Shown here: positions 5,771-34,000 of the stretch, one piece after another | Numbering within the stretch: position 1 is the first letter of the stretch | Layout: each line of letters starts with the position of its first letter | Assembly: GCA_017403825.1 (NCBI GenBank) | Contig: JAFRDO010000065.1 | Location: 6,438 to 70,437, forward strand | Direction of reading: 5' to 3' | Length of the DNA stretch: 64,000 nt | Origin: Kiritimatiellia bacterium | GTDB taxonomy: Bacteria; Verrucomicrobiota; Kiritimatiellia; RFP12; UBA1067 | The notes under the pieces: generated by a model | The model's input: the letters and a program-made list of their open reading frames with translations, nothing else | Databases searched by the model: none | What the model was told of the DNA's origin: nothing | Translations under genes and position numbers: made by a program

Positions 5771-5787
5771 CCCTTCACTTATATGAT

Positions 5788-19111: not shown

Positions 19112-22100
19112 TTAGAATTCCTCTTCGAACTTCGGAGTCCGTTTTTTCTTTTGGGAGCCCTGCACGCGGGAGGGGCGCGATTTGCCGAGGGTGGTGCTAT
19201 CAGCAGCATTATGGGGAGGAGTGGAGAGAGGACTGCCTTCGATGACGGCGATTTCGTCTTTGGAGAGTCCGTAGAGGGTATAGACGAGGGCGTCGATTTC
19301 GCGCTCCAGGGCTGAGGTGTCGGCAGAGGGGTTGCGGCGCTTGGCGGAGAGAATGCGGTCAACGAGGGCGATCATTTGTGCCTGTTGCTTTGGAGAAGCA
19401 AAAGGAAAAACTGGTAAAGCATCTACCTCATAGCCGTTCACATTGGAGTTTGTACTAAACTTTGAAAAATAAAAATTCATGAGCCGACTGTTCAAAACAC
19501 CTAACAGAACACGAGCCTTTTTACCACCAATAGGAATATAGTTAGCCGAATTCGCACAATACACGCCCCGTGCCAGAGTCGCTTTGATGCGCCACTTCTC
19601 ATTTACACCAGTGATTCCCTGTAAAACTATCCGCTCACTATCCCGCAGCTTATGCATCGCCTCAAGATCTTTCAGTTTTTTCTCGTTTACAAAAAGATGT
19701 TCGCCCTGACTCATTATCGTCGGCAACGAGTACCGCGCAATGCCTGCCCCTCTTAACATTTTGGGGAACTTAGAGTTTTTAGAAAATGCTTCTCTGGCAA
19801 AGGTCATGTCCAATTCGCCTGTCGCACATCTACTTACAGTAGTCAGCCTTTGCGCCGCACCACGCACCTTGAAAAGCACACGATAGTCTATCTCCCCCGC
19901 TATTGGAAGACGTCCATATTCGGGATCAAGTTCAATCAATGATTTGCACGGCAAATGAAATGACTCACCATCATAATCAACATAACTATCAGTATTGATT
20001 CTTAACACCATGTCACCTTGTGGCCTTGCATTTAGGGCCAAAAAAATGCAGACGGACATTTTTGCAGCTTCAAACACTCGTTTAGCGGGATTGTCTCGTT
20101 CTGGGAATGCATCAAAAGATATTGCTTGATAATTTGAAAACACATATTTTCGCAACGACGCCGCACTTAAATCTCCTGCAAAAGCTAAAGGAAAAATCTC
20201 TGAAAACACACCTGCATCAGATAGCAATTTAAGACTTTTCTGAATAAATAGACGATAGATATTTATAGTTCCACGGCCTCTTGCCTCCGAGAACTCTGGC
20301 GAATTTTTATAATAGGACATCGTGTCTTCATCGACAACAATCGCCACGCCCTTGTTTTGCCGCTTATTTACCAATCCATACGGCGGGTTGCCGATGACAA
20401 TATCAAAGCCGTCCTTGACGTTGAACATCCATTCGGGGTCGAAGAACTCGGCATGGACGTTCTGGTTGTATGGGTCCCATGAGGCCATCAGCCGTGTCGA
20501 TTCCTCCGAATAGCCTACCTTCTTCGCCGCGACGGCAAGGCGCTTGCGAAGCCTCTTGTCCTCATGGCGGAGTTCGTTCTTCTCCTGCCGCGTCTTCGCA
20601 AGGAAATGCCTGTGCCGCACGTCCCAGAGCGCATCCTTCGTCTCCTGTATGTCGCCCGTCTCGAAGAACAGGTCTCGCTGCGCCTCCTTCTCCAGTCCGA
20701 TGAGCGAATTCGCCGCGACGAATTTCGTCTCAAGGTTCGGCAACGTGTTTATGCCGTAGTTCGGCTTCGTCTTGTCGGGCTTTTGCTCGCAGACGAGCGA
20801 GATGAACATGCGGAGTTTGGAAATCTGCACCGCTATCTCCTGAATGTCAGAGCCGAAGATGCAGTTCTCTATGAGGCTCAGTTTGAGTCCGTAGAGATTG
20901 GCGTCCTCGGGTAGCCCCTTCAGGATTCGCAGGAGTTCGGTCATTTTCAGCAGTTCCCCCATCGGGAATGCACCAGAGCCGCAGGCAGGGTCAAGAATCT
21001 TCGCCGCCTCAACTGCCGCGACAAGCCGTGCGCAAATGGCATCGTCGGACGGGCGAATGCCGTCCGCGACAAGCGCACGGACGGTCGCCTCGTCTGCCTT
21101 TGCCTTTTCTGTGAGATAGACGACAAGCGATTCGTCAACCATGTAGTTTACGATTTCGCGGGGCGTGTAGAATGAGCCCGTTGAATTCCGCACGACCACC
21201 TCAGTCTCGGGATTGTATGCACCCAGCAGGTTCTCGAACACCTTGCCGAGCAGTTCTGGGTCAAGCGCAACGTCCTCGTCGCCAGGCGAATTCTCCTCAA
21301 CCGTGAAATTGTATCGCTTGAGGAGAGGAATGATGCCGTAGTCTGGGTCAAAGAAAAGGTCGTTCGGCACGTGCGCCCATGTGAGCGTGCCGAGGTCGCG
21401 ATGATGTTCCTGCAACGAAAACCCGTCATAGTACATGACCTTGCCGTCGTCGCCCTCTTGGTCAAGGCACTCGAAGAGCCCGCCGTTCAGGAACGGAATC
21501 GGACGGAAGAGGTCAAGGACCGCCTCCTTTGAAATCGCAAACTCATCGGCATAGCGGTATGTTGTCTTGACGCCATGATGCCGCGACATCGCCTTCCCGC
21601 CTGCCTTCCGCCCACTCGGCGCGTCCGCAAATTTCCTGTCGCCGATTTCGGAGTTGAGAGTGGCAAAGAACAGGTTCTGGAGGATTGCGCGATAGTACTG
21701 GTGCTGCTTGCGTCCGACAGGATTGAAGTCCTTGAGAATTTTCCGCAGATAGTTCTCATCGAAGAGTTCGGCAGGCACAAGCCCCTTCTGCTTCAGGAAC
21801 CACACGAACATGAGGCGAGTGATAAGCCGCAGGAGATGCTTGCGGTTCTTGTCCTCGCGGTTGTCTGCGTCGGTGTCAAGCCCGTTCGGGTATTCGACGC
21901 GCCTGTCGTCGCAGGCACGCTCGTACCACGCAAAGAGCAGGTTGTAGAACTCCTTGGTGAGCTTCTCGACCGAAAATGCCTCCTTGATGCCTTTCAGCGT
22001 GCTCCAGCTCATGCACATGCGCTGGACGAACGTTGCATTGGCGTCGGGGTCGTTCGTCACATAGAAACTCTGGCGGCGGGCCTTGCTCCAGTTGAACTTC

Positions 22101-22510
22101 CCGTTCTCGGGGGTGGCGGTGACGAGGCTCACGCGGAAACGTCCCTTCGCATCGTGGAACACGAACACCCCTTGGGCGATCACGCCGTCGAGTTCCATCG
22201 GCGGCGTCGCGGCAAAATGCTCCAGCACCTTCTTCGCCAGCTTGAACTGACGGATACGGCTGGAGCGCTCGGTAAGGGCGGCGGAGAGCGGCACGTCTGC
22301 CACGAGGAGCGGAGCCGTAAGGCCGTTCTCGCCAGGGAGGTCCCTGACCACGCCCAGAACACTGACCTTCTCGTCGCTGACCGCCCGAAAGAAGTAATCC
22401 CGTCCCACCGACACAAATGCCGCAGGGGCACAGGCCAACTTCAAGATTCGCACGAAACCATCTGCCGTATAGTCCCCGATCAGTTCCCGAACCGCCTCTT
22501 TCGACACCAT
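19112..22510 (-). CDS. Large gamma-class N6-adenine DNA methyltransferase of Type IIG / Eco57I / BREX-PglX type (~1130 aa) with a C-terminal target-recognition region. No recognisable endonuclease domain.
   Basis: ATG at 22510; the track start at 22522 is TTG. Motif I 'ILDPACGSGAFPMGEL'. Motif IV 'DIVIGNPPYGLV'. The C-terminal ~430 aa (coordinates ~19112-20400) are markedly lower in GC (~43%) than the N-terminal part (~58%). Confidence 0.8.
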   Translation of the reverse strand: MVSKEAVRELIGDYTADGFVRILKLACAPAAFVSVGRDYFFRAVSDEKVSVLGVVRDLPGENGLTAPLLVADVPLSAALTERSSRIRQFKLAKKVLEHFAATPPMELDGVIAQGVFVFHDAKGRFRVSLVTATPENGKFNWSKARRQSFYVTNDPDANATFVQRMCMSWSTLKGIKEAFSVEKLTKEFYNLLFAWYERACDDRRVEYPNGLDTDADNREDKNRKHLLRLITRLMFVWFLKQKGLVPAELFDENYLRKILKDFNPVGRKQHQYYRAILQNLFFATLNSEIGDRKFADAPSGRKAGGKAMSRHHGVKTTYRYADEFAISKEAVLDLFRPIPFLNGGLFECLDQEGDDGKVMYYDGFSLQEHHRDLGTLTWAHVPNDLFFDPDYGIIPLLKRYNFTVEENSPGDEDVALDPELLGKVFENLLGAYNPETEVVVRNSTGSFYTPREIVNYMVDESLVVYLTEKAKADEATVRALVADGIRPSDDAICARLVAAVEAAKILDPACGSGAFPMGELLKMTELLRILKGLPEDANLYGLKLSLIENCIFGSDIQEIAVQISKLRMFISLVCEQKPDKTKPNYGINTLPNLETKFVAANSLIGLEKEAQRDLFFETGDIQETKDALWDVRHRHFLAKTRQEKNELRHEDKRLRKRLAVAAKKVGYSEESTRLMASWDPYNQNVHAEFFDPEWMFNVKDGFDIVIGNPPYGLVNKRQNKGVAIVVDEDTMSYYKNSPEFSEARGRGTINIYRLFIQKSLKLLSDAGVFSEIFPLAFAGDLSAASLRKYVFSNYQAISFDAFPERDNPAKRVFEAAKMSVCIFLALNARPQGDMVLRINTDSYVDYDGESFHLPCKSLIELDPEYGRLPIAGEIDYRVLFKVRGAAQRLTTVSRCATGELDMTFAREAFSKNSKFPKMLRGAGIARYSLPTIMSQGEHLFVNEKKLKDLEAMHKLRDSERIVLQGITGVNEKWRIKATLARGVYCANSANYIPIGGKKARVLLGVLNSRLMNFYFSKFSTNSNVNGYEVDALPVFPFASPKQQAQMIALVDRILSAKRRNPSADTSALEREIDALVYTLYGLSKDEIAVIEGSPLSTPPHNAADSTTLGKSRPSRVQGSQKKKRTPKFEEEF

Positions 22511-23211
22511 CTTGTCCACCAATTCCCGTCCGCGCTACCAAGTTTGACCCGCCGTGCCGCGCAGACAGAAAAAAGAAACGCGGCGTGCCTTCAGTCCAAT
22601 ATCCCGATTGAGGCACGACCAAGCGCCTTGTAGTGAATACGGAAAGAAAGCACGTCGCGTGTGCAACGCACACGCGACGCACCCCGCTTATCTCGCTCAC
22701 TACTTGAATGTTTGGTCGTTTTCAATCAGAGCTCGATACGCAAGTTGCGTAGCGTGACCTCCTTTGCGCTTTCCACCTTCGCGCGAGGCTACTGTGGACG
22801 AATTGCGCTACGGAGGTCGTGCCGGGTTCCTTTTGGGATTTCCCGGCTCCTCGTTCCGCCGTTCATTGCCGACACGGCATCTGCGAGGTTCTGCCAGTTG
22901 CGTCGCTTGCGCGGCGCTTCGGGCCGATGGCGGGCGTTGAATGCCACCCGCCGATGTCAAAGATCACCTGTCCCCCATTCAAGGAACAGCACAATTATAT
23001 CATAAAAAAAGTGGCTAGTGGGTAGGCGAAAAATGGCGGACGTGTCGTCTCCGCCTGTGGGTGAAATCCTAAGCCGATGAGCGCTGAAACACAGAGCCTC
23101 CATGACAAACAGCTCTTGGCGGCACGCTCCGACCACGTTCACCACGGCAAGTGGAGGTCCTCCTTGCTTCCGTTAGCCGCACATCCTGAATGAAAGTCGT
23201 TGTCTTCCCCT

Positions 23212-25265: not shown

Positions 25266-27866
25266 ATGAGAAGAACGTGTTTCGTCATGTCGGTCGTGGC
25301 GCTTGCCGCGATATGCCAGGGTTCGTTCGGGCCGCTCACGCCGTCGGCGAAGCCCTACGAGCGAGAGTACATCTGGCCGGACGGGAAGATGCCCGACGTG
25401 CAGGCGCACCAGATCGCCGCGAAGACAGGCGAGAAGAGCAGTCCTGACTTCAAGGCGGAAAACTTCCGCCGCCCGTACATCGACTGGTATGCGCCTAACC
25501 CGGAATGCAAGACCGACCTCTGCGTCATTACCATTTCCGGCGGCGGGTTCTACACCTGCTGTGACGCCGAACGGCTCCAGCCAGCCATCGACAGATTCGT
25601 CAAGGCGGGCGTCACGGTCGCGGACGTCACGTACCGCACGCCGCGTCCGAACGGCCTGCCGATCCACCAGTCGGCATGGGAAGACGTGCAGCGCGCGGTG
25701 CGAGTGGTGCGCTCGGAGGCGGCGAAGCGCGGGTTCAACCCGGACAAGATCGGCGCGACCGGCATCTCCGCCGGATCCAAGGCGCTGCTGCTAGTGGCGA
25801 CGAGTTCCCTTACGCCCGCATACGCACCAATCGACGAGATCGACAACCTGCCGTGCAACCTGCTCTTCGCAATTCCGCAGGCCCCGGCGTACGTGCTGAC
25901 CGACGGCGAGGGTACGCCGAACTCGCGCGACGGCGACGCGCCTGACGTGGCGCTCGTGCCGGAGCTGAAGTTCGACGAGAAGACGTGTCCGATGTGCTTC
26001 TTCCAGGGCGGCATCGACGAGTATTCGCCATCCGGTTCCACACAGATTTACCGCCAGCTCCGCCGCATGAAAATCCCCGCCGAGGTGCATCTCTTCGCCG
26101 ACCGCTGGCACGGTTTCCACGGCGACATGAACAAGGGCGACGACGCCACCGGCTGGGATCACTGGTTCCATCGCGCCGAGGAATTCATCCGCCAGATGAA
26201 CTACGACGGGCGGCTAGGGGCCGACGAGGCGCTGATGCATCGCTTCGCGAGTGACGAAAGCCGCGGCACGTGGGAGAAGGAAGACATCTGGCCGGAAGGC
26301 AAGACGCCGCCCGGCTACACCAACCAGTGCACGCCTTTCATCGAATGGCATTTTCCGAAAGAGCTGAAGACACGGTCGATCCAGATCATCTTCTCCGGCG
26401 GCGGATACCACTGGAACAAGCCGGAAGGCATGGAGGTGACGCCGGCGAGGCGCTACTTGAACGCGAAGGGAATGACGGTCGTCACGCTCAAGTACCGCGA
26501 GCCACGCCCGGCAGGAGGCCTCGCAAAGCACACGTCCGCCTGGCAGGACCTGCAGCGCGCCGTCCGCATCGTCCGCTCCAAGGCGGCGGCAAAGGGGCTC
26601 AACCCCGACCGCATCGGCATAATGGGCGGCTCAGCCGGCGGACACCTCGCGCTGATGGGTGCCACGTCGTCGCGCCACAAGTCCTACCTGCCGGTCGATG
26701 CAATCGACAAGACGCCCTGCAACGTGCAGTGGGCCGTAGCCGTCTACCCGGCATATTCCCTCACCGACGGCATCGACTGCAAGAACACGGACGGCGGGAA
26801 CGGCGACGGCGACAGGCTCGTGCCGGAGTTCTCGTTCGACCTCGACACGTGTCCGGTACTCTTCCTCCACGGCGATGCTGACGGCTACTCGCCTATGGCA
26901 TCGGTCAAGGCATGGGAGCAGTTGCGGCGTATGGGCGTCCAGGGCGAGGTGCACACGTTCGCGACGCGCGGCCACTGCTTCCAGAACAAGTCTGCGCCCG
27001 GCACCGGCAGCTATACCTACCTCGACCGCATCTGGGAGTTCATGAACCACAAGGGGTACAACGCGCCAACGCCACTTCTGAACCGGATAGCAGCCTCGCA
27101 CAAGATCATCAAGCAAGACGTGTGGCACGGCTATTCGCGGGTCGTCTTCGATTTCGAGGGACATCAGGCGTGGATCGTTGAGCCGAACGGCGAATGGGCC
27201 GCCGGCCATCCGTGGACATGGACCATGCAGTGGGCCGATGCGTACGTCGAGAGGACCGGAGTGCCTGACATGCTCGGGAAAGGCTGGCGGCATGTCACGA
27301 TCGACACGTTCAGGCACAGGATGGATGAAGAGGGGCTTCGCGTGAGCCGGGCGTTCCAGAAGTACCTCGTCGACGAGCTTGGCTTCGCGGCCAAGGCGAA
27401 CCTCGTCGGCATGAGCTGGGGCGGATTCTTCTCGGTGCGCTACGCCGCGGCGTATCCCGACTGCGTGTCGAGGATATACCTTGACGCGCCGCTCCTGACG
27501 TTCGGTGGCGGATTCGGCGTTTCGGACGGTGCGCCGTCCGGCTCGGCGGCGCAGATCGGGCCATGGGCCGGAACGCCGCCGAAAAACGGCGACTGGCTTG
27601 CCGATCCGCGAATGCCGGTGAACATGGCGGGCGCAATCGCCAAGGCGGGGATTCCCATCCTTCTGCTCTACGGCGAGCACGACCAGACCGTGAAGCCGGT
27701 GTACAACTGCGAACCGTTCGCGGAGCGCTTCAAGGCCGCCGGGGGGACAATTGACGTACGGAAGCGCGCGGCGTTCGGGCATCATCCGCACGGCGAAGAC
27801 CCTGGCGCGACCCGCCGCATTACGGATTTCTTCGCAACCCCCTTGCGGAACGCGTCCGCTTTATGA
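25266..27866 (+). CDS. Secreted multi-domain carbohydrate esterase with three alpha/beta-hydrolase modules
   Basis: The ATG at 25266 lies 3 nt from the upstream stop, with AAGAGGA as RBS. Signal peptide MRRTCFVMSVVALAAICQG. It has nucleophile elbows 'GISAGSKALLL' and 'GGSAGGHLALMG', and a third module with 'GMSWGGFFS'. Confidence 0.7.
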   Translation: MRRTCFVMSVVALAAICQGSFGPLTPSAKPYEREYIWPDGKMPDVQAHQIAAKTGEKSSPDFKAENFRRPYIDWYAPNPECKTDLCVITISGGGFYTCCDAERLQPAIDRFVKAGVTVADVTYRTPRPNGLPIHQSAWEDVQRAVRVVRSEAAKRGFNPDKIGATGISAGSKALLLVATSSLTPAYAPIDEIDNLPCNLLFAIPQAPAYVLTDGEGTPNSRDGDAPDVALVPELKFDEKTCPMCFFQGGIDEYSPSGSTQIYRQLRRMKIPAEVHLFADRWHGFHGDMNKGDDATGWDHWFHRAEEFIRQMNYDGRLGADEALMHRFASDESRGTWEKEDIWPEGKTPPGYTNQCTPFIEWHFPKELKTRSIQIIFSGGGYHWNKPEGMEVTPARRYLNAKGMTVVTLKYREPRPAGGLAKHTSAWQDLQRAVRIVRSKAAAKGLNPDRIGIMGGSAGGHLALMGATSSRHKSYLPVDAIDKTPCNVQWAVAVYPAYSLTDGIDCKNTDGGNGDGDRLVPEFSFDLDTCPVLFLHGDADGYSPMASVKAWEQLRRMGVQGEVHTFATRGHCFQNKSAPGTGSYTYLDRIWEFMNHKGYNAPTPLLNRIAASHKIIKQDVWHGYSRVVFDFEGHQAWIVEPNGEWAAGHPWTWTMQWADAYVERTGVPDMLGKGWRHVTIDTFRHRMDEEGLRVSRAFQKYLVDELGFAAKANLVGMSWGGFFSVRYAAAYPDCVSRIYLDAPLLTFGGGFGVSDGAPSGSAAQIGPWAGTPPKNGDWLADPRMPVNMAGAIAKAGIPILLLYGEHDQTVKPVYNCEPFAERFKAAGGTIDVRKRAAFGHHPHGEDPGATRRITDFFATPLRNASAL

Positions 27867-27891
27867 TATACTTTATTTTACCGCAAGCGAT

Positions 27892-27967
27892 GGGGAAGTA
27901 GCTCAGTTGGTAGAGCATCACGTTCGCAACGTGGGGGTCGGGAGTTCGAATCTCCTCTTCTCCACCA
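27892..27967 (+). tRNA. tRNA-Ala (anticodon CGC), with encoded CCA
   Basis: GGGGAAGTAGCTCAGTTGGTAGAGCATCACGTTCGCAACGTGGGGGTCGGGAGTTCGAATCTCCTCTTCTCCACCA. The acceptor stem has the G3:U70 alanine identity pair. The anticodon loop is TTCGCAA (CGC). The T-arm is GGGAG/TTCGAAT/CTCCT. Confidence 0.85.
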
Positions 27968-27975
27968 TCGCAAAA

Positions 27976-28025
27976 GTGCATTTCGCCCAATAAAATCAAA
28001 GGTGAAATGCATTTTGTGTTTTATT
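27976..28025 (+). terminator. Rho-independent terminator after the tRNA
   Basis: The stem TGCATTTCGCC / GGTGAAATGCA (one mismatch) with loop caataaaatcaaa is followed by TTTTGTGTTTTATT. Confidence 0.7.
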
Positions 28026-28144
28026 GATCCGTCGTTGACTCTTGCCGTCTCTTTACTTTCCTTCCCAATGTGACAAGGGGGCAATTCCGGGGGCAAGGAT
28101 CGAACCTCCCACCGTGAGAGAATCGGCTTCTGCGCAAAAGGATC

Positions 28145-28268
28145 AAAAAATGTGCGCGACGAGGTTTGATTTCGGTCGAAAAATGTGCAGATGAAGGCAG
28201 ACTTTCGGTTGAAAAATGTGCAGATGAAGGCAGACTTTCGGTTGAAAAATGTGCAAGAGAAATGATAT
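28145..28268. repeat. Tandem 33-bp direct repeats (two perfect copies, one degenerate, one truncated) overlapping the promoter of the downstream ATPase gene
   Basis: The unit is GAAAAATGTGCAGATGAAGGCAGACTTTCGGTT, at 28178-28210 and 28211-28243. The degenerate copy at 28145-28177 is aaaaaatgtgcgcgacgaggtttgatttcggtc. The truncated copy at 28244-28268 runs into GATATAAT (-10), then GGAGG, then ATG at 28289. There are no spacers, so this is not CRISPR. Confidence 0.75.
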
Positions 28269-28288
28269 AATTTGCGCAGGAGGTCACT

Positions 28289-29626
28289 ATGCAAAGAGTT
28301 GCTTTCAATGAAATTGAGGCTTGGAACAAGCGAAAAAACCGCAAGCCGCTCATATTGATGGGCGCACGCCAAGTCGGCAAGACGTGGCTCATGGACGAAT
28401 TTGCCCGATCGGTCTATTCGGGTGATTCCGTTTCGGTGAACTTTATGGAGGACGATGCGATTCGCGAGAATTTCGAGACGGTGAAGCTTGATCCGAAAAC
28501 GCTTGTTTCGCTCATCCAGGCAAGAAGCGGACGAAGGATTGTACCCGGGAAGACACTTCTCGTCCTGGACGAGATACAGGAATCGCCCAGAGCATTGACC
28601 TCGCTCAAGTTCTTCAACGAGAAGATGCCGGAGTTGGCGATCATCGCCGCAGGGTCTCTCCTTGGTCTCAGCCTTCGCAGAAAGCACGGCACGAAGGAGC
28701 GAGAGTCAAAAGGTTCCTTTCCCGTCGGAAAAGTCGATTTCATAGACGTTCGGCCGATGACGTTCTCAGAGTATCTTTTGGCAAGAGGCGAATCGGTGAA
28801 GTCCGACGAGCTTGCCACCGGGAACTGGGAGATCCTCAACCTTATCCACGATGAAATGGTTAGACACCTCAAGGATTATCTGTTTGTCGGCGGAATGCCT
28901 GACGCAGTTAGGACTTTTGTCGCAAACGGTGACTATCTTGAGACACGCCGAACGCAGAAATCCATTCTGAAGGCATATGACAAGGATTTCGTCAAACACG
29001 CCGAGCCTTCGCTCCTCCCCCGCATCCGTCTTCTCTGGAACAACGTCTCGGCACAGCTTGGGAAACCAAACAAGAAGTTCATATACAAAGCGATGAAGGA
29101 AGGTGCGCGCGGGCGAAGCTATGAGGACGCCTTGCAGTGGCTGGACGACGCAGGCATGGTTCATCAGGTGTTCCGTGCGGATCCGCCTCGTATGCCGCTC
29201 AAGTCTTACGAGGATTTTTCCGCGTTCAAGTTGTACATGCATGACGTGGGGCTTCTTGGTGCGATGAGTGGACTTCCGGCATCGGCGCTTCTCGAACTAA
29301 ACTCGATATTTACAAATTTCAAAGGCGCCTTGACGGAACAGTACGTGCTCCAAGAATTGCTTGCGGCAGGGGTGTCTCCGTCGTACTGGGCGGCGGAACG
29401 CGGTGACGCAGAGGTGGATTTTATCGTGCAGGGGTCCAAGGCCGTATTCCCCGTAGAAGTCAAGGCCGAGCGCAATCTCAAGGCGAAAAGCCTGAAGACA
29501 TATCGTGAATTCTTCAAGCCACCGGTCTGCTATCGAACATCGCTTTCTGAATATGCCGCAGGGCGATTGACACGCGACATTCCGCTCTATGCCGTCGCCC
29601 GCATCGCCGAGGAAGTGCGCAAATGA
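28289..29626 (+). CDS. AAA+ ATPase of the DUF4143 family ('ATP-binding protein')
   Basis: The Walker A 'ILMGARQVGKTWL' is followed by the long C-terminal region typical of DUF4143 proteins. It has its own promoter (TATAAT at ~28264) and RBS GGAGG. Confidence 0.75.
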   Translation: MQRVAFNEIEAWNKRKNRKPLILMGARQVGKTWLMDEFARSVYSGDSVSVNFMEDDAIRENFETVKLDPKTLVSLIQARSGRRIVPGKTLLVLDEIQESPRALTSLKFFNEKMPELAIIAAGSLLGLSLRRKHGTKERESKGSFPVGKVDFIDVRPMTFSEYLLARGESVKSDELATGNWEILNLIHDEMVRHLKDYLFVGGMPDAVRTFVANGDYLETRRTQKSILKAYDKDFVKHAEPSLLPRIRLLWNNVSAQLGKPNKKFIYKAMKEGARGRSYEDALQWLDDAGMVHQVFRADPPRMPLKSYEDFSAFKLYMHDVGLLGAMSGLPASALLELNSIFTNFKGALTEQYVLQELLAAGVSPSYWAAERGDAEVDFIVQGSKAVFPVEVKAERNLKAKSLKTYREFFKPPVCYRTSLSEYAAGRLTRDIPLYAVARIAEEVRK

Positions 29627-29650
29627 GATGGCCGAAAGAGAGATGAAGTC

Positions 29651-30097
29651 ATGGAGAAGTTCGAGGTGGTCGTGATGTGCGGGATTCCCGGAAGCGGCAA
29701 GACGACGTTTTGCCGCGAGCGGTTGTTTCCGCAGTATCTCTACATTTCGCTCGACCGGCTCAGGTCGCGGTCGGCGGAGGCGGAGCTTTTCGCATTTGCG
29801 CTGCGCCGCAGAAAGAGTTGCGTCATCGACAACACTAACATCAACGGACACGAGAGGACTCGTTACGTCCCGGCCGCCAAGAAAGCAGGCGCGAGCGTTG
29901 TCGCATACTGGTTCGATCCAGACGTCAGGGCGTGCAGGGCAAGGAACGCGAGCCGGACTGGGCGCGAGCGCGTGCCTGACTTCGTAATAGGGACCAAGGC
30001 GGCCCGCTTTGCCCCGCCGAACAAGGCGGAAGGGTTCGACGACATCCGCAAGGTGTCCATAGACGGCGACGGTTTCAAGGTGGAGGAGGGAATATGA
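29651..30097 (+). CDS. P-loop polynucleotide 5'-kinase-like protein (T4 Pnk kinase-domain-like / AAA_33)
   Basis: 'VVMCGIPGSGKTTFCRE' aligns to T4 Pnk 'TIGCPGSGKSTWARE'. 'VIDNTNINGHER' aligns to 'IISDTNLNPERR'. 'CRARNASRTGRERVPDFVI' aligns to 'VKRNSKRGTKAVPIDVL'. It overlaps the next gene by 4 nt. Confidence 0.65.
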   Translation: MEKFEVVVMCGIPGSGKTTFCRERLFPQYLYISLDRLRSRSAEAELFAFALRRRKSCVIDNTNINGHERTRYVPAAKKAGASVVAYWFDPDVRACRARNASRTGRERVPDFVIGTKAARFAPPNKAEGFDDIRKVSIDGDGFKVEEGI

Positions 30098-30834
30098 GAA
30101 AGAATGGTCTTGGCGACCGAATGAAAGAGTACGAGCGTGCGAGCGACGTGAAACTAGTCCGCCGGCTGCCGATGATCGTTCGGCTTGACGGCAAGGCGTT
30201 TCATTCATGGACGAAGAAAACGGGATGCGTCCGCCCGTTCGACCACACGTTCATCGAAATGATGGCGGGGCTGGCGCAGTACCTCTGCGAGAACATCGGC
30301 GGCGCGGAACTGGCCTACGGGCAGTCCGACGAGATATCAATTCTCGTGCGGGACGACCAGAACCTCGACACCGACGCGTGGTTCGACAAGCGGTTGCAGA
30401 AGGTCGTTTCCATCGTGGCATCGATGGCAACGTATTGGTTCAACGCGAACAACGCCTTCGAGAAAAAGCTCCCCGCGTTCTTCGATGCGAGGGCATTCAT
30501 ACTGCCTGAACATGAGGTCAAAAATTACTTCATCTGGCGGCAAGAGGATGCCACGACGAACAGTCTCTCTATGCTGGCCCAGAGCCTGTACCGACATGGG
30601 GAGTTGCAGCACAAGAAGTGGACAGAGCTGCAGGAAATGTGCTGGCGGAAGGATTGCAACTGGAACAACCTCGATTCGGTCGAGAAGCGGGGTTTCTGTG
30701 TCTATCGCCAAGAGGTGGTCGTAGAAGGACGACAGGGGCCTGTCAAGCGGATGAAGTTCCTCGTGGACCGCGCCATCCCGATCTTCACAAGCTCGGATTC
30801 CGCCGGGTGGTGGTCTCGGTTCCTGAAGGCGTAA
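30094..30834 (+). CDS. Thg1-like protein (tRNA-His guanylyltransferase family; 3'-5' nucleotidyltransferase)
   Basis: 'MKEYERASDVKLVRRLPMIVRLDGKAFHSWTK' matches the Thg1 N-terminal signature (fe....l.p...ivvRiDGr.FHkF). It is 246 aa, typical of bacterial TLPs. Confidence 0.8.
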   Translation: MRKNGLGDRMKEYERASDVKLVRRLPMIVRLDGKAFHSWTKKTGCVRPFDHTFIEMMAGLAQYLCENIGGAELAYGQSDEISILVRDDQNLDTDAWFDKRLQKVVSIVASMATYWFNANNAFEKKLPAFFDARAFILPEHEVKNYFIWRQEDATTNSLSMLAQSLYRHGELQHKKWTELQEMCWRKDCNWNNLDSVEKRGFCVYRQEVVVEGRQGPVKRMKFLVDRAIPIFTSSDSAGWWSRFLKA

Positions 30835-30846
30835 GGAGTTATAGCA

Positions 30847-31084
30847 ATGCGGATAATGGCGACAACTGGCTTGCACGGCAACCTTGAGGGCTCGACCCCA
30901 AGAGTGCGGATATCGTCGTCCTTACGGGCGACATCGCACCGCTGCGCGGTTGCGGGCTATGGACGCCTGTACAAAGCAACGTTGGGCGTGATTTGCAGCC
31001 AATCCCGCCCGACAGTTTCCGGCCTCGAAAGCGTCATTGGCACGACTCGACGGACGCAAGGAACTCCAGCCTGTCGGCGACATA
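30847..31084 (+). pseudogene. Frameshifted, truncated calcineurin-like metallophosphoesterase remnant
   Basis: AAGGAG, 8 nt, then ATG at 30847, which reads MRIMATTGLHGNLEG. After an apparent 1-nt deletion the +1 frame reads LDPKSADIVVLTGDIAP. Together these form the canonical phosphoesterase N-terminus (DxHG...GDxx). Homology is lost after ~35 codons, and the frame runs into the convergent GH78 gene end. Confidence 0.5.
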
Positions 31085-34000
31085 GACCATGCAGTTCACC
31101 CAGTCGCTGCCGTTCCGGCTGTCGAAGTAGGTTGGTATGGTGCCGTCGGCGCGCTGGTGCCGCGTGACGTTGTCGGCGAGAGCCTTCGCCTTTTCAATGA
31201 AAAGCCCGTTCCCAGTCGCCTTATACGCCGCCGCAAATGCGCCGATCATGTCGCCCATAGAAGCGTCGATCGGCGTGTAGTAGTCGTATTGCTCGAGCGC
31301 AGTCGGGGTCTTCCAGTTCTTCCAGTCCATGTTGTGGATCGGATCGCTCCACACGACAAACTGGTCTTCGCACCAGTCTACGATTTCGCAAGCCTCGGCG
31401 TTGCGTCCGAGCGAAAAGAGACTGAGCGCCGTATCTACGGCGACGCCCTTCTGCATGTTCCGGTAAGGCGGCATGGGATCCATGTCCTCGAACTGTCCGT
31501 CCCAGTTCCAGTTCGTTGCAGGCCCCTTCAGCACGTATCCGAACGCGCGGTCGCGCGCAGCGGCGAAAGCCGCGTCGCCCGTGGCGGCGAACGCGCGGTC
31601 GAACGCTCCAAGCACGTAGCGCGACGGCACAAGGCGGTTGGCGCGGACGGGCGAGCCGTCCTTCTCGCTCACCTTGAGCGGCCACGTACCGTCCTCGCCC
31701 TGAAGCCTCATGTAGCTTCGGACAATGTCAAGCGCGGCGTCGCGGTATTTCCCGTCGCGCGTCGCTTCCGCCAAGTCAAGGTAGGCGTGCGCGGCATGAG
31801 CGGGATAGTGCAGCATGTGCTGCCCCGCGTACTTCACCGCCACGTCGCGGCGGTCGCCCCAGTACGTGGGCGGGAAATGCGCGAGCGGCGTCCCGGCAGG
31901 CTGGCTGTGGGCAATGAGCCAGTCGGCCATCTTACGGGCGATGGCAAGGGCATCCGCCGAGTCCTTAGGCTCCGCCTTGGCGTGGCGGCAGAGCGCACGA
32001 ATCATCGAACTGAGTATCTTGGCCGGATAGCAGTAGAGGTCGTAGCCTTTCGGCGGATCGTCGGACGTGCGCCAGCCCTGCACCTGCAGCATGTTGAACA
32101 CCGCCGCATATACCTTCCTCGCCGCATCGCGATAGTCGCACGCGCCCGAAGGATACGGACCGCGGAACACGGCGGCGCGGTAGAACGAGCGCTCGCCAGA
32201 GCCTTCGACCTTCAAAGTATAGTAGCCGGGCGCAAGTGAATCCCAGATGTCGGCGGGAACGGGAATCCAAGGCTTGACGGCAGTCCAATCCTTCAGCCAC
32301 TCGACCTCCGCCGATTGCTCCCGATTGCGTCCGATGCGATACCGATATTCCTTCACGCCGCCGATCTCCTTGAAGTCAAACGCCGGCGGATGCATGAACG
32401 CCTTAGAATGTCCGTTCCAGAACGGACGCACTCCCGGCACGCCTGCCCGCACCGGCGTCTTGGCTTGCTCACGTGCGGCGGCGTTCAGCTCCTGCCAACG
32501 GTCAGGAGCCCCCGACAGCTCGTAGTCGCCGGCGGCGTATTCACGAGAGGTGCCGTCAAGTCCGGAGACAAGAGCTACGCTTCCCGGCGGCACTGAGAAC
32601 TGCCAGACAAGCCGCCCCGCATCGTCGTACCGCCATGCGCTCCGAATCACGCCGAAGCCGCTGCGGTACGTCGCCGAACACGACCCGAGCCTACGGTCGG
32701 GATACGGCCTCAGCCTGAACCGCCGCCAGCCGCCATGCTCCGGGTCGGGGCGAATCCCCGCCGCCGCAGAGAACAGCCACTCCAGCACGCAACCGTAGGC
32801 GTAGTGGTTGAAGCTGTTCATGCCGACCGGACCGAAGCCCTTCTCCTTCGTGTAGCCGTTCCATCGCTCCCAGACAGTAGTCGCGCCCTGATCGACAGAG
32901 TAGAGCCAGCTCGGGAAGGCGTCCTGCAGCAGCAGCGAATACGCCAGATCCGGCGCGTCCGCCTCGAACGTCAGCGTCGGCAGCAGGATAGCCGTGCCGA
33001 GAAAGCCAGTCTGGAGCCGGTTCCCGTGAGCCTTGATGTTGGCGATCAGGTCGCGCTTCGTGGCCTCGACCGCCGCCGCGTTGCCGCAAAGGCCGAGCTT
33101 CAGCATGTAGAGGTCGTTGCACTGCCCCTTGTATTCGTCCTTGATCGTCCCGTCCGGCCCGACGTATTCCGCCGCGAACGCCTTGCGCAGCTTCGCCTCT
33201 TCCTCCGCATAGTGGCGCGCCGCCTCGGCTCTTCCAGTCGCCGCCGCCATCTCGCGCATGAGCATCGCCATCCACACGCGGAAGTACGCGTTGAGCGCCT
33301 TGACCTGGCGATCGTCCATCGCGTCGTCGGTGAGGTCGCCGGCGGGCTTTTCGTGATGCTCGAACGCAAGCCAGTCGCCGTGGTTGATGCGGTACGGCTC
33401 CGCGTCGCTTTCGAGGAAGTCCATGTAGCGGACCATCGAATCCCACGACTCGTCGACGAACCTGCGCTCGCCGTACCACTTCCACAGGCGGTATGGGACG
33501 ATCACCCCGGCGTCAGTCCACCCCGCGCTCGCCCACGGATCGGTGGTATGGCGCACGTTCGGCACGAAGCACATGTAACAGCCGTTGGCGCGCTGCGCGT
33601 CGCGCAGGTCGGCGAGAAACTTGCCGAGGAACTCCCGCGTGTCTGCTAGATATGCCGCGCTGTTCATGAACACCTGCGTGTCCGCCGTCCAGCCGAGACG
33701 CTCGTCGCGCTGCGGACAGTCCGTCGGCGACGAAAGATAGTTCGACAGCATCCCCCAGCGAATGTTCCCGACGAGCCTGTTCACGCGGTCGTTCCCGGTC
33801 ACGATGCTTCCCCTCTCCATCCCCTTCGTGACGGACGATACGGGCGTAGAGCGCCAGCGCGCGAACACGACCGGCCCTGTCGCCGTCACGCCCAAATAGC
33901 GGTAGCCGAAGTAAGTGTAGCGCGGCATGTACGACTGCGGGCCGTCCTTGAGCATGTAGCGGATTCCGGCGTAGGCCTCGCGCAGAGAGGCGAGATACGG

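What the first reader, a model, noticed from the sequence alone, without database searches (positions are those of the whole stretch)
27892..28288. tRNA-Ala(CGC) followed by a terminator, a T-loop-like fragment and a 33-bp iteron-like array over the promoter of a DUF4143 ATPase
Downstream of the tRNA and its terminator lies GGTTCGATCC (minus strand, ~28095-28104), resembling a tRNA T-loop fragment. Then come four phased copies of AAAAATGTGC-containing 33-bp units (3 helical turns apart). The last copy overlaps the -35 region of a GATATAAT promoter driving the AAA ATPase gene. tRNA 3' ends are classic integration sites. The array looks like a multimeric repressor or activator operator, or an iteron.
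Basis: seen in the sequence. Interest (0 to 1): 0.55.

Follow-up and report, generated by a model that had tools for sequence, protein, structure and literature searches.

The report
Self-operator array of a DUF4143 ATPase
The four 33-bp repeats are real and are most likely the binding sites through which a very common but uncharacterised ATPase-nuclease (a candidate phage-defence gene) controls its own promoter; the same phased array sits in front of related genes in at least eight bacterial phyla, which I found described nowhere in the literature I could search.

Summary
tRNA-Ala(CGC) lies at 27892-27967, followed by a strong hairpin. Four phased units, spaced exactly 33 bp, occupy 28137-28268. 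The last unit carries the -35 of a near-consensus promoter for an AAA_14/DUF4143 ATPase (PADLOC candidate PDC-S01). The 'T-loop-like' 10-mer is at chance level.

The integration and iteron readings fail. DNA homology to 87%-identical relatives covers only 28146-29635, which is the array, the promoter and the ATPase ORF. None of 23 relatives has a tRNA, kinase or Thg1-like gene nearby.

The main result is comparative. Homologues at 24-92% identity, from Kiritimatiellia, Lentisphaeria, Bifidobacterium, Coriobacteriales, Bacteroidota, Fusobacterium, Gammaproteobacteria, Ruminococcus and Criblamydia, carry 2-5 upstream units at 32-33 bp. At least three phased units occur in 44 of 78 metagenome loci, in 0 of 234 control windows and in 3 of 234 shuffles. 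A 19-bp core is conserved and the linkers drift. Paralogues on one contig have different cores. The lineage-specific half-site co-varies best with residues 268-282, the predicted helix-turn-helix.

Best reading (about 0.6): a cognate operator array through which the ATPase represses itself. Binding itself is inferred, not shown.

The parts
28146..29635 (+). Transferable cassette: operator array, promoter and ATPase ORF.
   Evidence: blastn homology to 87%-identical relatives L110 and L111 spans only 28146/28147 to 29633/29635, and the flanks are unrelated. GC is 0.523 against 0.64 in the flanking genes.
28137..28169 (+). Unit 1 (distal, degenerate): AAAGGATCAAAAAATGTGC + linker. It keeps only the AAAAATGTGC half.
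   Evidence: The positional counterpart in L111 is also degenerate.
28170..28202 (+). Unit 2: core TTTCGGTCGAAAAATGTGC (28170-28188) + 14-nt linker.
28203..28235 (+). Unit 3: core TTTCGGTTGAAAAATGTGC (28203-28221) + linker identical to that of unit 2 (recent duplication).
28236..28268 (+). Unit 4 (promoter-proximal): core TTTCGGTTGAAAAATGTGC (28236-28254). It contains the -35 hexamer.
28242..28271 (+). Sigma-70-type promoter: -35 TTGAAA 28242-28247, 18-bp spacer, extended TG 28263-28264, -10 TATAAT 28266-28271.
   Evidence: 11 of 12 matches, TG present. Identical geometry in L111, L110, L107 and L004.
28278..28283 (+). Ribosome-binding site AGGAGG, 5 nt before the ATG.
   Evidence: Read from the sequence.
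28289..29626 (+). 445-aa ATPase-nuclease: AAA+ core (about 1-165), lid (about 166-250), predicted winged helix-turn-helix (about 253-317), PD-(D/E)XK-like domain (about 347-445) with E350, E375 and E390-x-K392.
   Evidence: Pfam AAA_14 4e-20 and DUF4143 7.5e-37. PADLOC PDC-S01 4e-159. AF2 model pLDDT 83. Fold matches. Invariant residues.
27892..27967 (+). Neighbour, not part of the cassette: tRNA-Ala(CGC).
   Evidence: No tRNA next to any relative.
27969..28018 (+). Neighbour: hairpin plus U-tract, the probable terminator of the tRNA gene.
   Evidence: (I1).
29651..30834 (+). Neighbour: separate two-gene RNA-repair module, a PNK-like AAA_33 kinase (29651-30097) and a Thg1-like protein (30094-30834). 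It is probably read through from the ATPase promoter in this genome; that is an inference from the 24-nt gap.
   Evidence: Homology to relatives spans only 29660-30827, and those relatives lack the ATPase.

Best explanation
The array is the cognate operator of a self-contained, horizontally moving cassette (28146-29635) made of the operator array, the promoter and one gene. That gene encodes an AAA+ ATPase fused to a winged helix-turn-helix and a PD-(D/E)XK nuclease-like domain.

Proposed mechanism: the protein binds its own upstream units through the helix-turn-helix. Each unit holds a 19-bp core, which is an imperfect palindrome in many lineages. It consists of a near-universal AAAAATGTG half and a lineage-specific half. 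Units lie 32-33 bp apart, about three helical turns, so bound proteins sit on one face of the DNA and can bind cooperatively. The promoter-proximal unit contains the -35 hexamer, so occupancy shuts off the otherwise near-consensus promoter. This is negative autoregulation of a potentially harmful ATPase-nuclease.

Shown here: the array, its phasing, its link to this gene family across phyla, selection on core and spacing, promoter overlap, and co-variation with the predicted helix-turn-helix.

Inferred: that the ATPase is the binder, that binding represses, and any role of ATP.
For: 1. Linkage to the gene only.
- Homology with 87%-identical relatives ends at the first unit and 9 nt after the stop codon.
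- Relatives at 82-92% protein identity sit in unrelated contexts.
- No kinase, Thg1-like protein, hydrolase or tRNA occurs in 23 genome loci.

2. Family-wide phasing.
- Mean autocorrelation of the region -220 to -20 in 23 genome loci is 0.40 at lag 33 against a background of about 0.256.
- In 14 of 23 loci the locus-wide maximum of the lag-33 score lies directly upstream of the ATPase.
- In 78 independent metagenome loci the top lag is 32-34 in 56% (32 or 33 in all 44 such loci). In 341 control windows the top lag is 33 in 1.8%.
- At least three phased copies occur in 44 of 78 upstream regions, in 0 of 234 random windows and in 3 of 234 shuffles.
- Arrays are also present in cultured Glaesserella, Fusobacterium, Bacteroides thetaiotaomicron, Acinetobacter baumannii, Vibrio, Ruminococcus and Criblamydia.

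3. Selection on core and spacing.
- Among the closest relatives, core identity is 0.80 and linker identity is 0.36.
- The within-array conserved footprint is 19 nt.

4. Specificity per gene. Paralogues at 24-32% identity on the same contigs carry their own 33-bp arrays with unrelated cores: L025b, L094b and L078b.

5. Promoter overlap.
- TTGAAA-18-TGnTATAAT sits in the proximal unit in all five members of the window's clade.
- Read from the sequence context printed, the -35 falls inside the proximal unit in at least 17 loci, including Bifidobacterium and Glaesserella. This is my count, not a tool tally.
- In Bacteroidota-type loci the TAnnTTTG box abuts a unit at +6 or +8 in 11 of 15 cases.

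6. Protein.
- The AF2 model places an H-H-H-beta-beta module after the AAA+ lid.
- The best PDB matches are the archaeal AAA+ ATPases 2qen and 2fna, then the clamp loader RFC, MalT and Orc1/Cdc6 bound to origin DNA.

7. Co-variation. Identity of the lineage-specific half-site, controlled for overall protein identity, correlates best with residues 268-282. That is the top window of those scanned (15 aa, step 3, along the 445-aa protein), with partial r = 0.194; 0 of 500 permutations reach it.
Against: - No binding or expression data exist.
- The helix-turn-helix is predicted from secondary structure and whole-chain fold matches only. No Pfam HTH model hits it. The region is modelled with low confidence: residues 259-274 have pLDDT below 50, and the domain-only model was poor there.
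- The co-variation signal is modest (r about 0.19). Label permutation does not fully remove phylogenetic structure.
- About 40% of sampled homologues show only two units or no clear array. One paralogue has none (L107 at 12442). One has 23-bp repeats and one has units about 40 bp apart.
- A site over the -35 can also serve class II activation, as with MalT and SARP regulators, so the sign of regulation is not settled.
Confidence: 0.6

Rival explanations
1. The ATPase binds the array, but the array is mainly an assembly or activation platform. ATP-dependent oligomerisation on phased sites would activate transcription (positive feedback, MalT-like) or load and license the ATPase-nuclease on DNA (DnaA/Orc1-like). 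Autorepression would be secondary.
For: The fold class is shared with Orc1/Cdc6, the clamp loader RFC and MalT. The strict 32-33-bp phasing, and arrays of up to five units extending far upstream of the promoter, exceed what simple promoter occlusion needs. In Bacteroidota some units lie downstream of the -7 box.
Against: The promoter is near-consensus (11 of 12 matches plus extended TG), unlike typical activator-dependent promoters. The proximal unit covers the -35 in many lineages.
Confidence: 0.17
2. The units are sites for an unlinked host regulator or nucleoid protein, not for the ATPase.
For: A-tract-rich cores resemble sites of nucleoid-associated proteins. No direct binding evidence exists for the ATPase.
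Against: The cores differ between paralogues on the same contig. They travel with the gene across eight phyla and into unrelated contexts. They co-vary with residues 268-282 of the ATPase. No second gene is conserved nearby.
Confidence: 0.08
3. Plasmid-type iterons: a replication origin of an integrated or episomal element.
For: The repeats are direct, phased and AT-rich, lie next to a gene for an initiator-like AAA+ protein, and the region has lower GC.
Against: No Rep-family domain is present. The arrays are chromosomal, with two or three family genes on single contigs. Only 59 of 72,556 plasmid records carry a homologue; among the plasmid records inspected, three (L114, L122, L123) have a replicon type assigned by PLSDB. 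The array ends in the gene's own promoter.
Confidence: 0.03
4. Scar or att region of an element integrated at the tRNA-Ala 3' end, with a tRNA-like fragment.
For: The array lies near a tRNA, the ATPase region has lower GC, and a 10-mer resembles a T-loop.
Against: There is no duplicate of the tRNA 3' end, no integrase within 10 kb and no tRNA-like signal at 28097. The 10-mer recurs by chance. The cassette boundary is 179 nt past the tRNA. No relative is next to a tRNA.
Confidence: 0.03
5. A neutral tandem duplication (minisatellite) or generic intergenic repeat with no function.
For: Units 2 and 3 are an almost perfect 33-bp duplication. Copy number varies from 2 to 5 among relatives.
Against: The period and core are conserved across phyla while the linkers diverge. 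The element occurs only at this one place in 64 kb. It is the locus-wide maximum in 14 of 23 loci.
Confidence: 0.02

Closest known systems
Archaeal Orc1/Cdc6 with ORB repeats next to the orc1/cdc6 gene (structure 2qby)
   Same: An AAA+ ATPase followed by a winged helix. Repeated recognition elements lie immediately beside the protein's own gene. It is a fold match (E 6.6e-5).
   Different: ORB elements flank an unwinding region and act as an origin. Here the units are all in direct orientation, at a fixed 32-33 bp, and end in the promoter. Several family genes occur on single contigs. The protein carries an extra PD-(D/E)XK domain. No origin features were found.
DnaA boxes in the dnaA promoter (autoregulation by an AAA+ DNA-binding protein)
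   Same: An AAA+ protein with a C-terminal-side DNA-binding domain binds arrays of short sites and represses its own gene. This comparison rests on my own knowledge and was not tested here.
   Different: The sites, spacing and DNA-binding fold differ. DnaA is single-copy and essential, whereas this family is accessory and horizontally mobile.
MalT and other STAND/LAL regulators on phased direct repeats (structure 8bob)
   Same: An ATP-driven oligomerising NTPase with an HTH that binds phased repeats overlapping the -35. It is a fold match (E 2.2e-5).
   Different: MalT activates weak promoters of other operons and has a LuxR-type HTH and a sensor domain. Here the promoter is near-consensus, the target is the protein's own gene, and a nuclease-like domain is present.
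Iteron-Rep plasmids, and the ParR-parC or omega-heptad centromere/operator arrays
   Same: Arrays of direct repeats bound cooperatively by the product of the adjacent gene, overlapping and repressing its promoter.
   Different: There is no Rep or Par protein, no replicon context, and the unit is 32-33 bp rather than 7-22 bp.
PADLOC candidate PDC-S01 / COG1373 (AAA_14 + DUF4143)
   Same: The window's gene is a member: PDC-S01 model at 4e-159 and the Pfam domains. PMC12988326 calls it the fourth most common defence system in prokaryotes and describes it as an ATPase fused to a PD-(D/E)XK domain.
   Different: The papers I could search describe only the protein. None mentions an upstream repeat array. 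One heterologous test of a PDC-S01 gene in E. coli B was not among the four candidates reported as protective.
Archaeal Walker-type ATPases PABY2304 (2qen) and SSO1545 (2fna)
   Same: They are the best structural matches over about 390 alignment columns.
   Different: Identity is 12-15% and neither has the C-terminal nuclease-like domain. Their function is also unknown.

Membership tests
PDC-S01 / COG1373 ATPase (AAA_14 + DUF4143) | AAA_14 P-loop domain with a Walker A motif | tested here: met
   PF13173 at 4.4e-20, residues 18-163. G25-A-R-Q-V-G-K-T32 is invariant in 19 sequences.
PDC-S01 / COG1373 ATPase (AAA_14 + DUF4143) | C-terminal DUF4143 domain | tested here: met
   PF13635 at 7.5e-37, residues 232-393.
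PDC-S01 / COG1373 ATPase (AAA_14 + DUF4143) | Match to the PADLOC PDC-S01 models | tested here: met
   PDLC04786 at 4e-159, covering residues 1-440.
PDC-S01 / COG1373 ATPase (AAA_14 + DUF4143) | PD-(D/E)XK fold and catalytic motif | tested here: met
   E350, E375 and E390-x-K392 are invariant. All top fold matches of the C-terminal model are PD-(D/E)XK nucleases such as McrC, DdmD, Can2, Bax1 and Hjc, but the E-values are weak (>= 0.01). The family is listed in the superfamily survey.
PDC-S01 / COG1373 ATPase (AAA_14 + DUF4143) | Anti-phage activity | not testable with these tools
   This is only a candidate system. One tested representative was not among the protective ones.
Autoregulatory operator array (cognate sites of the adjacent gene's product) | Sites overlap the core promoter of the regulated gene | tested here: met
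   The -35 lies inside unit 4. The geometry is conserved in relatives.
Autoregulatory operator array (cognate sites of the adjacent gene's product) | The product has a sequence-specific DNA-binding domain | tested here: inconclusive
   A helix-helix-helix-hairpin module at 253-317 follows the AAA+ lid, as in 2qen, 2fna and Orc1. No Pfam HTH hit was found and local model confidence is low.
Autoregulatory operator array (cognate sites of the adjacent gene's product) | Sites co-inherit and co-vary with the protein | tested here: met
   Cassette boundaries. Paralogue-specific cores. Partial correlation peaks at residues 268-282, with 0 of 500 permutations reaching it.
Autoregulatory operator array (cognate sites of the adjacent gene's product) | Demonstrated binding and repression | not testable with these tools
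   Needs EMSA or footprinting and reporter assays.
Plasmid iterons / Rep origin | Adjacent Rep-family initiator gene | tested here: not met
   Only AAA_14 and DUF4143 were found.
Plasmid iterons / Rep origin | Located in a replicon's origin, one per replicon | tested here: not met
   The locus is chromosomal, among glycosidase genes. Two or three family genes occur on single contigs. Homologues are rare on plasmids.
Plasmid iterons / Rep origin | Phased direct repeats | tested here: met
tRNA-targeted integrative element | Direct repeat of the tRNA 3' end at the far junction | tested here: not met
   The 24-nt tRNA 3' end, with up to 3 mismatches, occurs once in 64 kb.
tRNA-targeted integrative element | Integrase gene next to the tRNA | tested here: not met
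   The genes called within 10 kb are glycosidases, a hydrolase, a restriction-modification enzyme, a PIN protein and an SNF2 helicase. The whole window was not scanned protein by protein.
tRNA-targeted integrative element | tRNA junction shared by relatives | tested here: not met
   There are 0 tRNAs in 23 related loci.
Known structured RNA (Rfam) | Match to a covariance model, or stable structure | tested here: not met
   No hit reaches the gathering score except the tRNA. Folding z-scores are 0.26 and -0.27.

The most novel reading that the evidence does not exclude
The phased array is more than an autorepressor site. It would be the nucleation platform of a single-gene DNA-sensing switch. 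The ATPase-nuclease would be stored or assembled, under ATP control, on its own 32-33-bp-spaced sites. The near-universal AAAAATGTG half-site would reflect a DNA-recognition mode that the family also uses on foreign DNA. Titration of the protein away from the array during invasion would then both derepress the gene and arm the nuclease. This would give a mechanism for one of the most abundant uncharacterised defence candidates.
Probability: 0.15. Interest if true: 0.8.

Novelty: new variant of a known kind. Interest (0 to 1): 0.62.

Why it matters
AAA_14/DUF4143 ATPases (PADLOC PDC-S01) are reported as the fourth most common defence-system call in prokaryotes, with about 39,000 instances, and they have no known mechanism. 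In the one test I found, the gene was not among those reported as protective.

A conserved, phased cis-element attached to these genes gives the first concrete handle on what the protein recognises and how it is controlled. It predicts a DNA-binding specificity that can be tested with a gel shift in a day. It also explains why the gene moves as a 1.5-kb self-regulating cassette, and it could serve as a sequence signature for finding and classifying family members.

There are practical consequences as well. Heterologous tests that clone only the ORF behind a foreign promoter bypass the gene's native control. The perfect 33-bp duplications coincide with breaks in short-read assemblies next to these genes: contigs L002 and L003 start inside the array.

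Tried and rejected
- tRNA-like fragment. Rfam at E <= 10 and ARAGORN find nothing at 28097, and the 10-mer recurs at 29910. Rejected.
- att duplication. No duplicate of the tRNA 3' end was found. Rejected.
- Structured RNA or sRNA. Folding z-scores are 0.26 and -0.27, and the isrD hit (20 bits against a gathering score of 37) is chance. Rejected.
- CRISPR-like mini-array. The 'spacers' are 14 nt and the last unit is the promoter. No Cas domain was seen among the eight proteins scanned with Pfam or the genes called within 10 kb; the rest of the 64-kb window was not scanned for cas genes. Rejected from the sequence.
- Operon logic with the kinase and Thg1-like genes. No relative of the ATPase has them, and their own relatives lack the ATPase. 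They are not part of the element.
- Sequence search of the PDB, with the single protein and with a profile. Only P-loop matches were found.
- Pfam scan of the 245-325 segment for an HTH family. Only DUF4143 matched.
- Domain-only AF2 model. It was worse than the full-length model in the HTH region (pLDDT 69) and was used only for the nuclease-like part.
- Distance between -10-like hexamers and unit anchors across all loci. The result was too noisy in AT-rich loci to be useful. I replaced it with an explicit promoter scan in GC-richer loci.
- Search of IMG/VR for the window's core. There was one hit, a single copy inside an ORF, which is chance level.
- Phage and plasmid collections. Homologues are rare: 12 of 50,697 phage records and 59 of 72,556 plasmid records. 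Neither collection is enriched for this gene.
- Literature searches for DUF4143, COG1373, PDC-S01, AAA_14 and 33-bp repeats. Nothing on upstream arrays was found. The AAA_14 search returned mostly irrelevant papers.
Full report
**1. What is in the window**

ARAGORN and Rfam both call tRNA-Ala(CGC) at 27892-27967. A hairpin follows at 27969-28018, ending in UUUUGUGUUUUAUU. It folds at -21 kcal/mol with z = -5.3, so it is a plausible terminator for the tRNA gene.

From 28137 to 28268 there are four 33-bp units in exact register:
- Unit 1: AAAGGATCAAAAAATGTGC + linker. It is degenerate.
- Unit 2: TTTCGGTCGAAAAATGTGC + linker.
- Unit 3: TTTCGGTTGAAAAATGTGC + linker.
- Unit 4: TTTCGGTTGAAAAATGTGC, running into the promoter.

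The 19-mer core, with up to 3 mismatches, occurs nowhere else in the 64 kb, and the shuffle expectation is 0.00. Units 2 and 3 share an identical linker, so they are a recent duplication.

Unit 4 contains TTGAAA (28242-28247). Eighteen bases later comes TG-n-TATAAT (28263-28271), an 11-of-12 match to the sigma-70 consensus with an extended -10. AGGAGG follows at 28278-28283 and the ATG at 28289.

The gene, 28289-29626, encodes a 445-aa AAA_14 + DUF4143 protein. It matches the PADLOC candidate defence family PDC-S01 at 4e-159.

The one item that does not hold up is the 'T-loop-like fragment'. GGTTCGATCC is on the minus strand at 28097-28106. The same 10-mer occurs again at 29910, and no tRNA model sees anything there at E <= 10.

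**2. The locus is three independent modules**

blastn against the closest relatives shows DNA homology only from 28146/28147 to 29633/29635. These relatives are L110 and L111, at 87% nucleotide and 92% protein identity. The homologous stretch runs from the first unit to 9 nt past the stop codon.

Upstream and downstream, those relatives have unrelated genes. L110 has an Amidase_3 gene upstream. L107 lies between another ATPase and a sulfatase-maturase gene.

The downstream pair is a PNK-like AAA_33 kinase (29651-30097) and a Thg1-like protein (30094-30834). It is a separate module. Its relatives at 71-86% identity sit in an RtcR-RtcA-RtcB RNA-repair operon, or stand alone, and never sit next to a DUF4143 ATPase. 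Homology to them covers only 29660-30827.

None of 23 genome loci with an ATPase homologue has a tRNA, kinase, Thg1-like or hydrolase homologue within 6 kb. There is no second copy of the tRNA 3' end in the window and no integrase within 10 kb.

The cassette has GC 0.523, against 0.64 for the flanking genes. So the array belongs to a 1.5-kb cassette that was acquired horizontally and happens to lie 179 nt after a tRNA. The tRNA-integration reading is not supported.

**3. The array is a hallmark of the gene family**

This is the main result. I pulled the 330 nt upstream of 23 homologues at 37-74% identity. They came from Kiritimatiellia, Lentisphaeraceae, Coriobacteriales, Bacteroides and many Bifidobacterium type strains. 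Nearly all of the 22 with upstream sequence show 2-5 direct repeats just before the promoter.

An unbiased test gives the same answer:
- The mean autocorrelation of positions -220 to -20 is 0.40 at lag 33 and 0.32 at lag 66. The background is about 0.256, and the other lags (5-109) range from about 0.23 to 0.30, lags 32 and 65 being the highest.
- In 14 of 23 loci, the highest lag-33 score anywhere in the locus (up to 13 kb, or 64 kb for the window) lies directly upstream of the ATPase.
- In an independent set of 78 metagenome loci at 42-55% identity, the top lag is 32-34 in 56% (32 or 33 in all 44 such loci). In 341 control windows the top lag is 33 in 1.8%.
- Chains of at least three phased copies occur in 44 of 78 upstream regions. 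They occur in 0 of 234 random windows from the same loci and in 3 of 234 composition-matched shuffles.

Complete genomes and plasmids of cultured bacteria show the same arrays:
- Glaesserella parasuis, Fusobacterium animalis and Bacteroides thetaiotaomicron.
- Acinetobacter baumannii, Vibrio coralliilyticus, Ruminococcus albus and Criblamydia sequanensis.

Distant paralogues on the same contigs, at 24-32% identity, carry their own 33-bp arrays with unrelated cores:
- L025b: TATTTTGTGAAT, five copies.
- L094b: TTGGGGGAAACNACAACTTTTTGC, three copies.
- L078b: TTGTCTTTTCGTG, three copies.

The feature is not universal. Roughly 40% of sampled genes show only two units or no clear array. One paralogue has none (L107 at 12442). 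One has 23-bp repeats and one has units about 40 bp apart.

**4. Anatomy of the unit**

I anchored 46 arrays on the AAARYGY core. Agreement between units of the same array is high from offset -11 to +7, which is 19 nt, and falls to background in the remaining 13-14 nt.

Within those 19 nt, the 3' half (A)AAAATGTG is shared by most lineages. The 5' half is constant within an array but differs between arrays.

In many lineages the unit is an obvious palindrome. Examples are CACATTTTTCGATGGAAWAATGTG in most Kiritimatiellia and ACACTTTTATGCGCATAAAAATGT in Acinetobacter and Vibrio. In the window's clade only TTTC-N4-GAAA of the left arm survives.

Among the five closest relatives, positional counterparts keep the core at 0.80 identity (about 0.9 in the proximal unit), while linkers are at 0.36. 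So both the core and the spacing are under selection, and the sequence between cores is free to drift. Copy number ranges from 2 to 5. The window's units 2 and 3, and L104, show that arrays grow by unit duplication.

The promoter is built into the proximal unit:
- TTGAAA-18-TGnTATAAT is identical in geometry in the window, L111, L110, L107 and L004.
- Read from the sequence context printed, the -35 lies in the proximal unit in at least 17 loci, including Bifidobacterium and Glaesserella. This is my count, not a tool tally.
- In Bacteroidota-type loci the TAnnTTTG -7 box abuts a unit at +6 or +8 in 11 of 15 cases.

**5. The protein**

The AF2 model has pLDDT 83 and pTM 0.84. It shows four parts:
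- An AAA+ core (about 1-165).
- A helical lid (about 166-250).
- A helix-helix-helix-hairpin module (about 253-317).
- An alpha-beta-beta-beta-alpha-beta domain (about 347-445).

Its best PDB matches are the archaeal Walker-type ATPases 2qen and 2fna. The clamp loader RFC, MalT and Orc1/Cdc6 on origin DNA follow.

The C-terminal model matches only PD-(D/E)XK nucleases, namely McrC, DdmD, Can2, Bax1 and Hjc, at weak E-values. E350, E375 and E390-x-K392 are invariant across 19 diverse sequences. This agrees with the literature.

No Pfam HTH family matches the middle module, and residues 259-274 are modelled with low confidence. The winged-helix assignment is therefore an inference from topology and from the position of the same module in the fold neighbours.

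I tested it indirectly. Across 46 loci, I scanned 15-aa windows in steps of 3 along the 445-aa protein. For each window I correlated pairwise identity of the lineage-specific half-site with pairwise identity of that protein segment, controlling for whole-protein identity. The maximum is at residues 268-282, with partial r = 0.194. The next best windows are 265-279 and 394-408. None of 500 label permutations reaches that maximum. Residues 268-282 span the second and third helices of the predicted module. The effect is modest, and permutation does not remove all phylogenetic structure, but the peak falls where a recognition helix should be.

**6. Mechanism**

The only gene that travels with the array is the ATPase. 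Paralogues in one genome have different cores. The cores co-vary with the ATPase's predicted HTH, and the proximal core occupies the -35 of a strong promoter.

The most economical explanation is that the ATPase binds its own array. It may bind as a dimer per palindromic unit, with neighbours on the same face of the helix every three turns. Binding would repress its own transcription and keep an ATPase-nuclease at a low, buffered level.

I put the whole statement at about 0.6. Self-binding alone is about 0.75, and repression given binding is about 0.75.

The main rival, at about 0.17, is that binding is real but serves ATP-dependent assembly or activation, as with MalT, DnaA or Orc1. The strictness of the 32-33-bp phasing and the length of some arrays hint at more than promoter occlusion. 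An unlinked host factor, plasmid iterons, a tRNA integration scar and neutral duplication are each at 0.08 or lower, for the reasons given under rival explanations.

In this genome the 24-nt gap before the kinase gene suggests that the kinase and Thg1-like pair is now read through from the array-controlled promoter. That is an inference only.

**7. Comparison with what is known**

The gene is a member of PDC-S01/COG1373 on all sequence criteria. The array works like an autoregulatory operator. It resembles DnaA boxes at the dnaA promoter, ORB elements beside archaeal orc1/cdc6, MalT boxes, and iteron or centromere arrays that overlap promoters. It is not a member of the iteron, att or Rfam classes, whose defining features were tested and not met.

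In the library I could search, DUF4143 appears in three papers and PDC-S01 in seven. None mentions upstream repeats. PMC12988326 reports PDC-S01 as the fourth most common defence call in prokaryotes, with 29,494 bacterial and 9,986 archaeal instances. A cold-seep preprint tested one representative in E. coli B, and it was not among the four candidates reported to protect. I cannot exclude a description in a paper outside that library.

**8. Verdict**

It is a conserved, phased cis-element of a very abundant and functionally unknown gene family, and it makes the family's DNA recognition and control directly testable.

I rate it as a new variant of a known kind (a self-operator array), with interest 0.62.

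Limits: there is no experimental evidence of binding, the HTH is inferred, the arrays are not universal in the family, and archaeal members were not examined.

Noticed in passing
window 29651-30834; L113 3840-4379: RNA-repair genes follow the ATPase in two unrelated cases. In the window they are a PNK-like kinase and a Thg1-like protein. On the Fusobacterium animalis plasmid pSB029A it is an RNA 2'-phosphotransferase gene that overlaps the ATPase stop codon. That is 2 of roughly 115 loci, so it may be chance, or it may hint that the nuclease-like domain acts on RNA.
   Followed up: partly
L115/L116 1-7738; L117 5647-13846: In relatives the kinase and Thg1-like pair ends an RtcR-controlled operon (AAA/nSTAND3 gene, unknown gene, RtcA, RtcB, kinase, Thg1-like). 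Elsewhere it sits with two RlaP genes, RtcA, a Cas1 homologue and an SLFN/AlbA_2 gene. This suggests a role in tRNA 5'-end repair within Rtc-type stress responses.
   Followed up: no
window 19112-22522 (-) and upstream; L001 1-4222: A defence-type cluster lies about 6 kb upstream of the cassette: an Eco57I-like type IIG restriction-modification enzyme (1132 aa), a PIN-domain gene with a small partner ORF, and an SNF2 helicase. The Glaesserella homologue sits next to a type III restriction-modification system.
   Followed up: no
window 28127-28138 and 28271-28282: A 12-nt inverted repeat, CTTCTGCGCAAA / TTTGCGCAGGAG (11 of 12 complementary), brackets the array (I4). The left arm lies outside the region conserved with relatives, so it is probably chance.
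   Followed up: partly
L002 and L003 position 1; protein table: Two Logan contigs start 63 nt before the ATG, inside the array. Most homologues in the protein database sit on contigs of only 1.5-3 kb. Perfect 33-bp unit duplications may break short-read assemblies next to these genes, although most contigs in that collection are short anyway.
   Followed up: no
L107 4650-4747: A different ATPase (370 aa, with nSTAND1/AAA_16/AAA_22 hits) lies directly upstream of the 82%-identical homologue. It has its own long palindrome, AAAATCAACCAAATGG-N7-CCGTTTGGTTGATTTT, before its promoter. This may be a second self-operator in another ATPase family.
   Followed up: no
L020 about 5700-5790 (between divergent genes): Three 23-bp tandem repeats, CATAACATTGAC..., lie upstream of a very distant (22% identity) divergently oriented ATPase paralogue. 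The period differs from the 32-33 bp seen elsewhere.
   Followed up: no
window 27863-27874 and 28262-28273: The tRNA gene and the ATPase gene have near-identical extended -10 elements, ATGATATACTTT and ATGATATAATTT (D3). This probably just reflects the organism's promoter consensus.
   Followed up: no
window 30847-31167 (+): A 106-aa ORF after the Thg1-like gene has no Pfam, NCBIfam or PADLOC match and overlaps the end of the convergent rhamnosidase ORF. It may not be a real gene.
   Followed up: no
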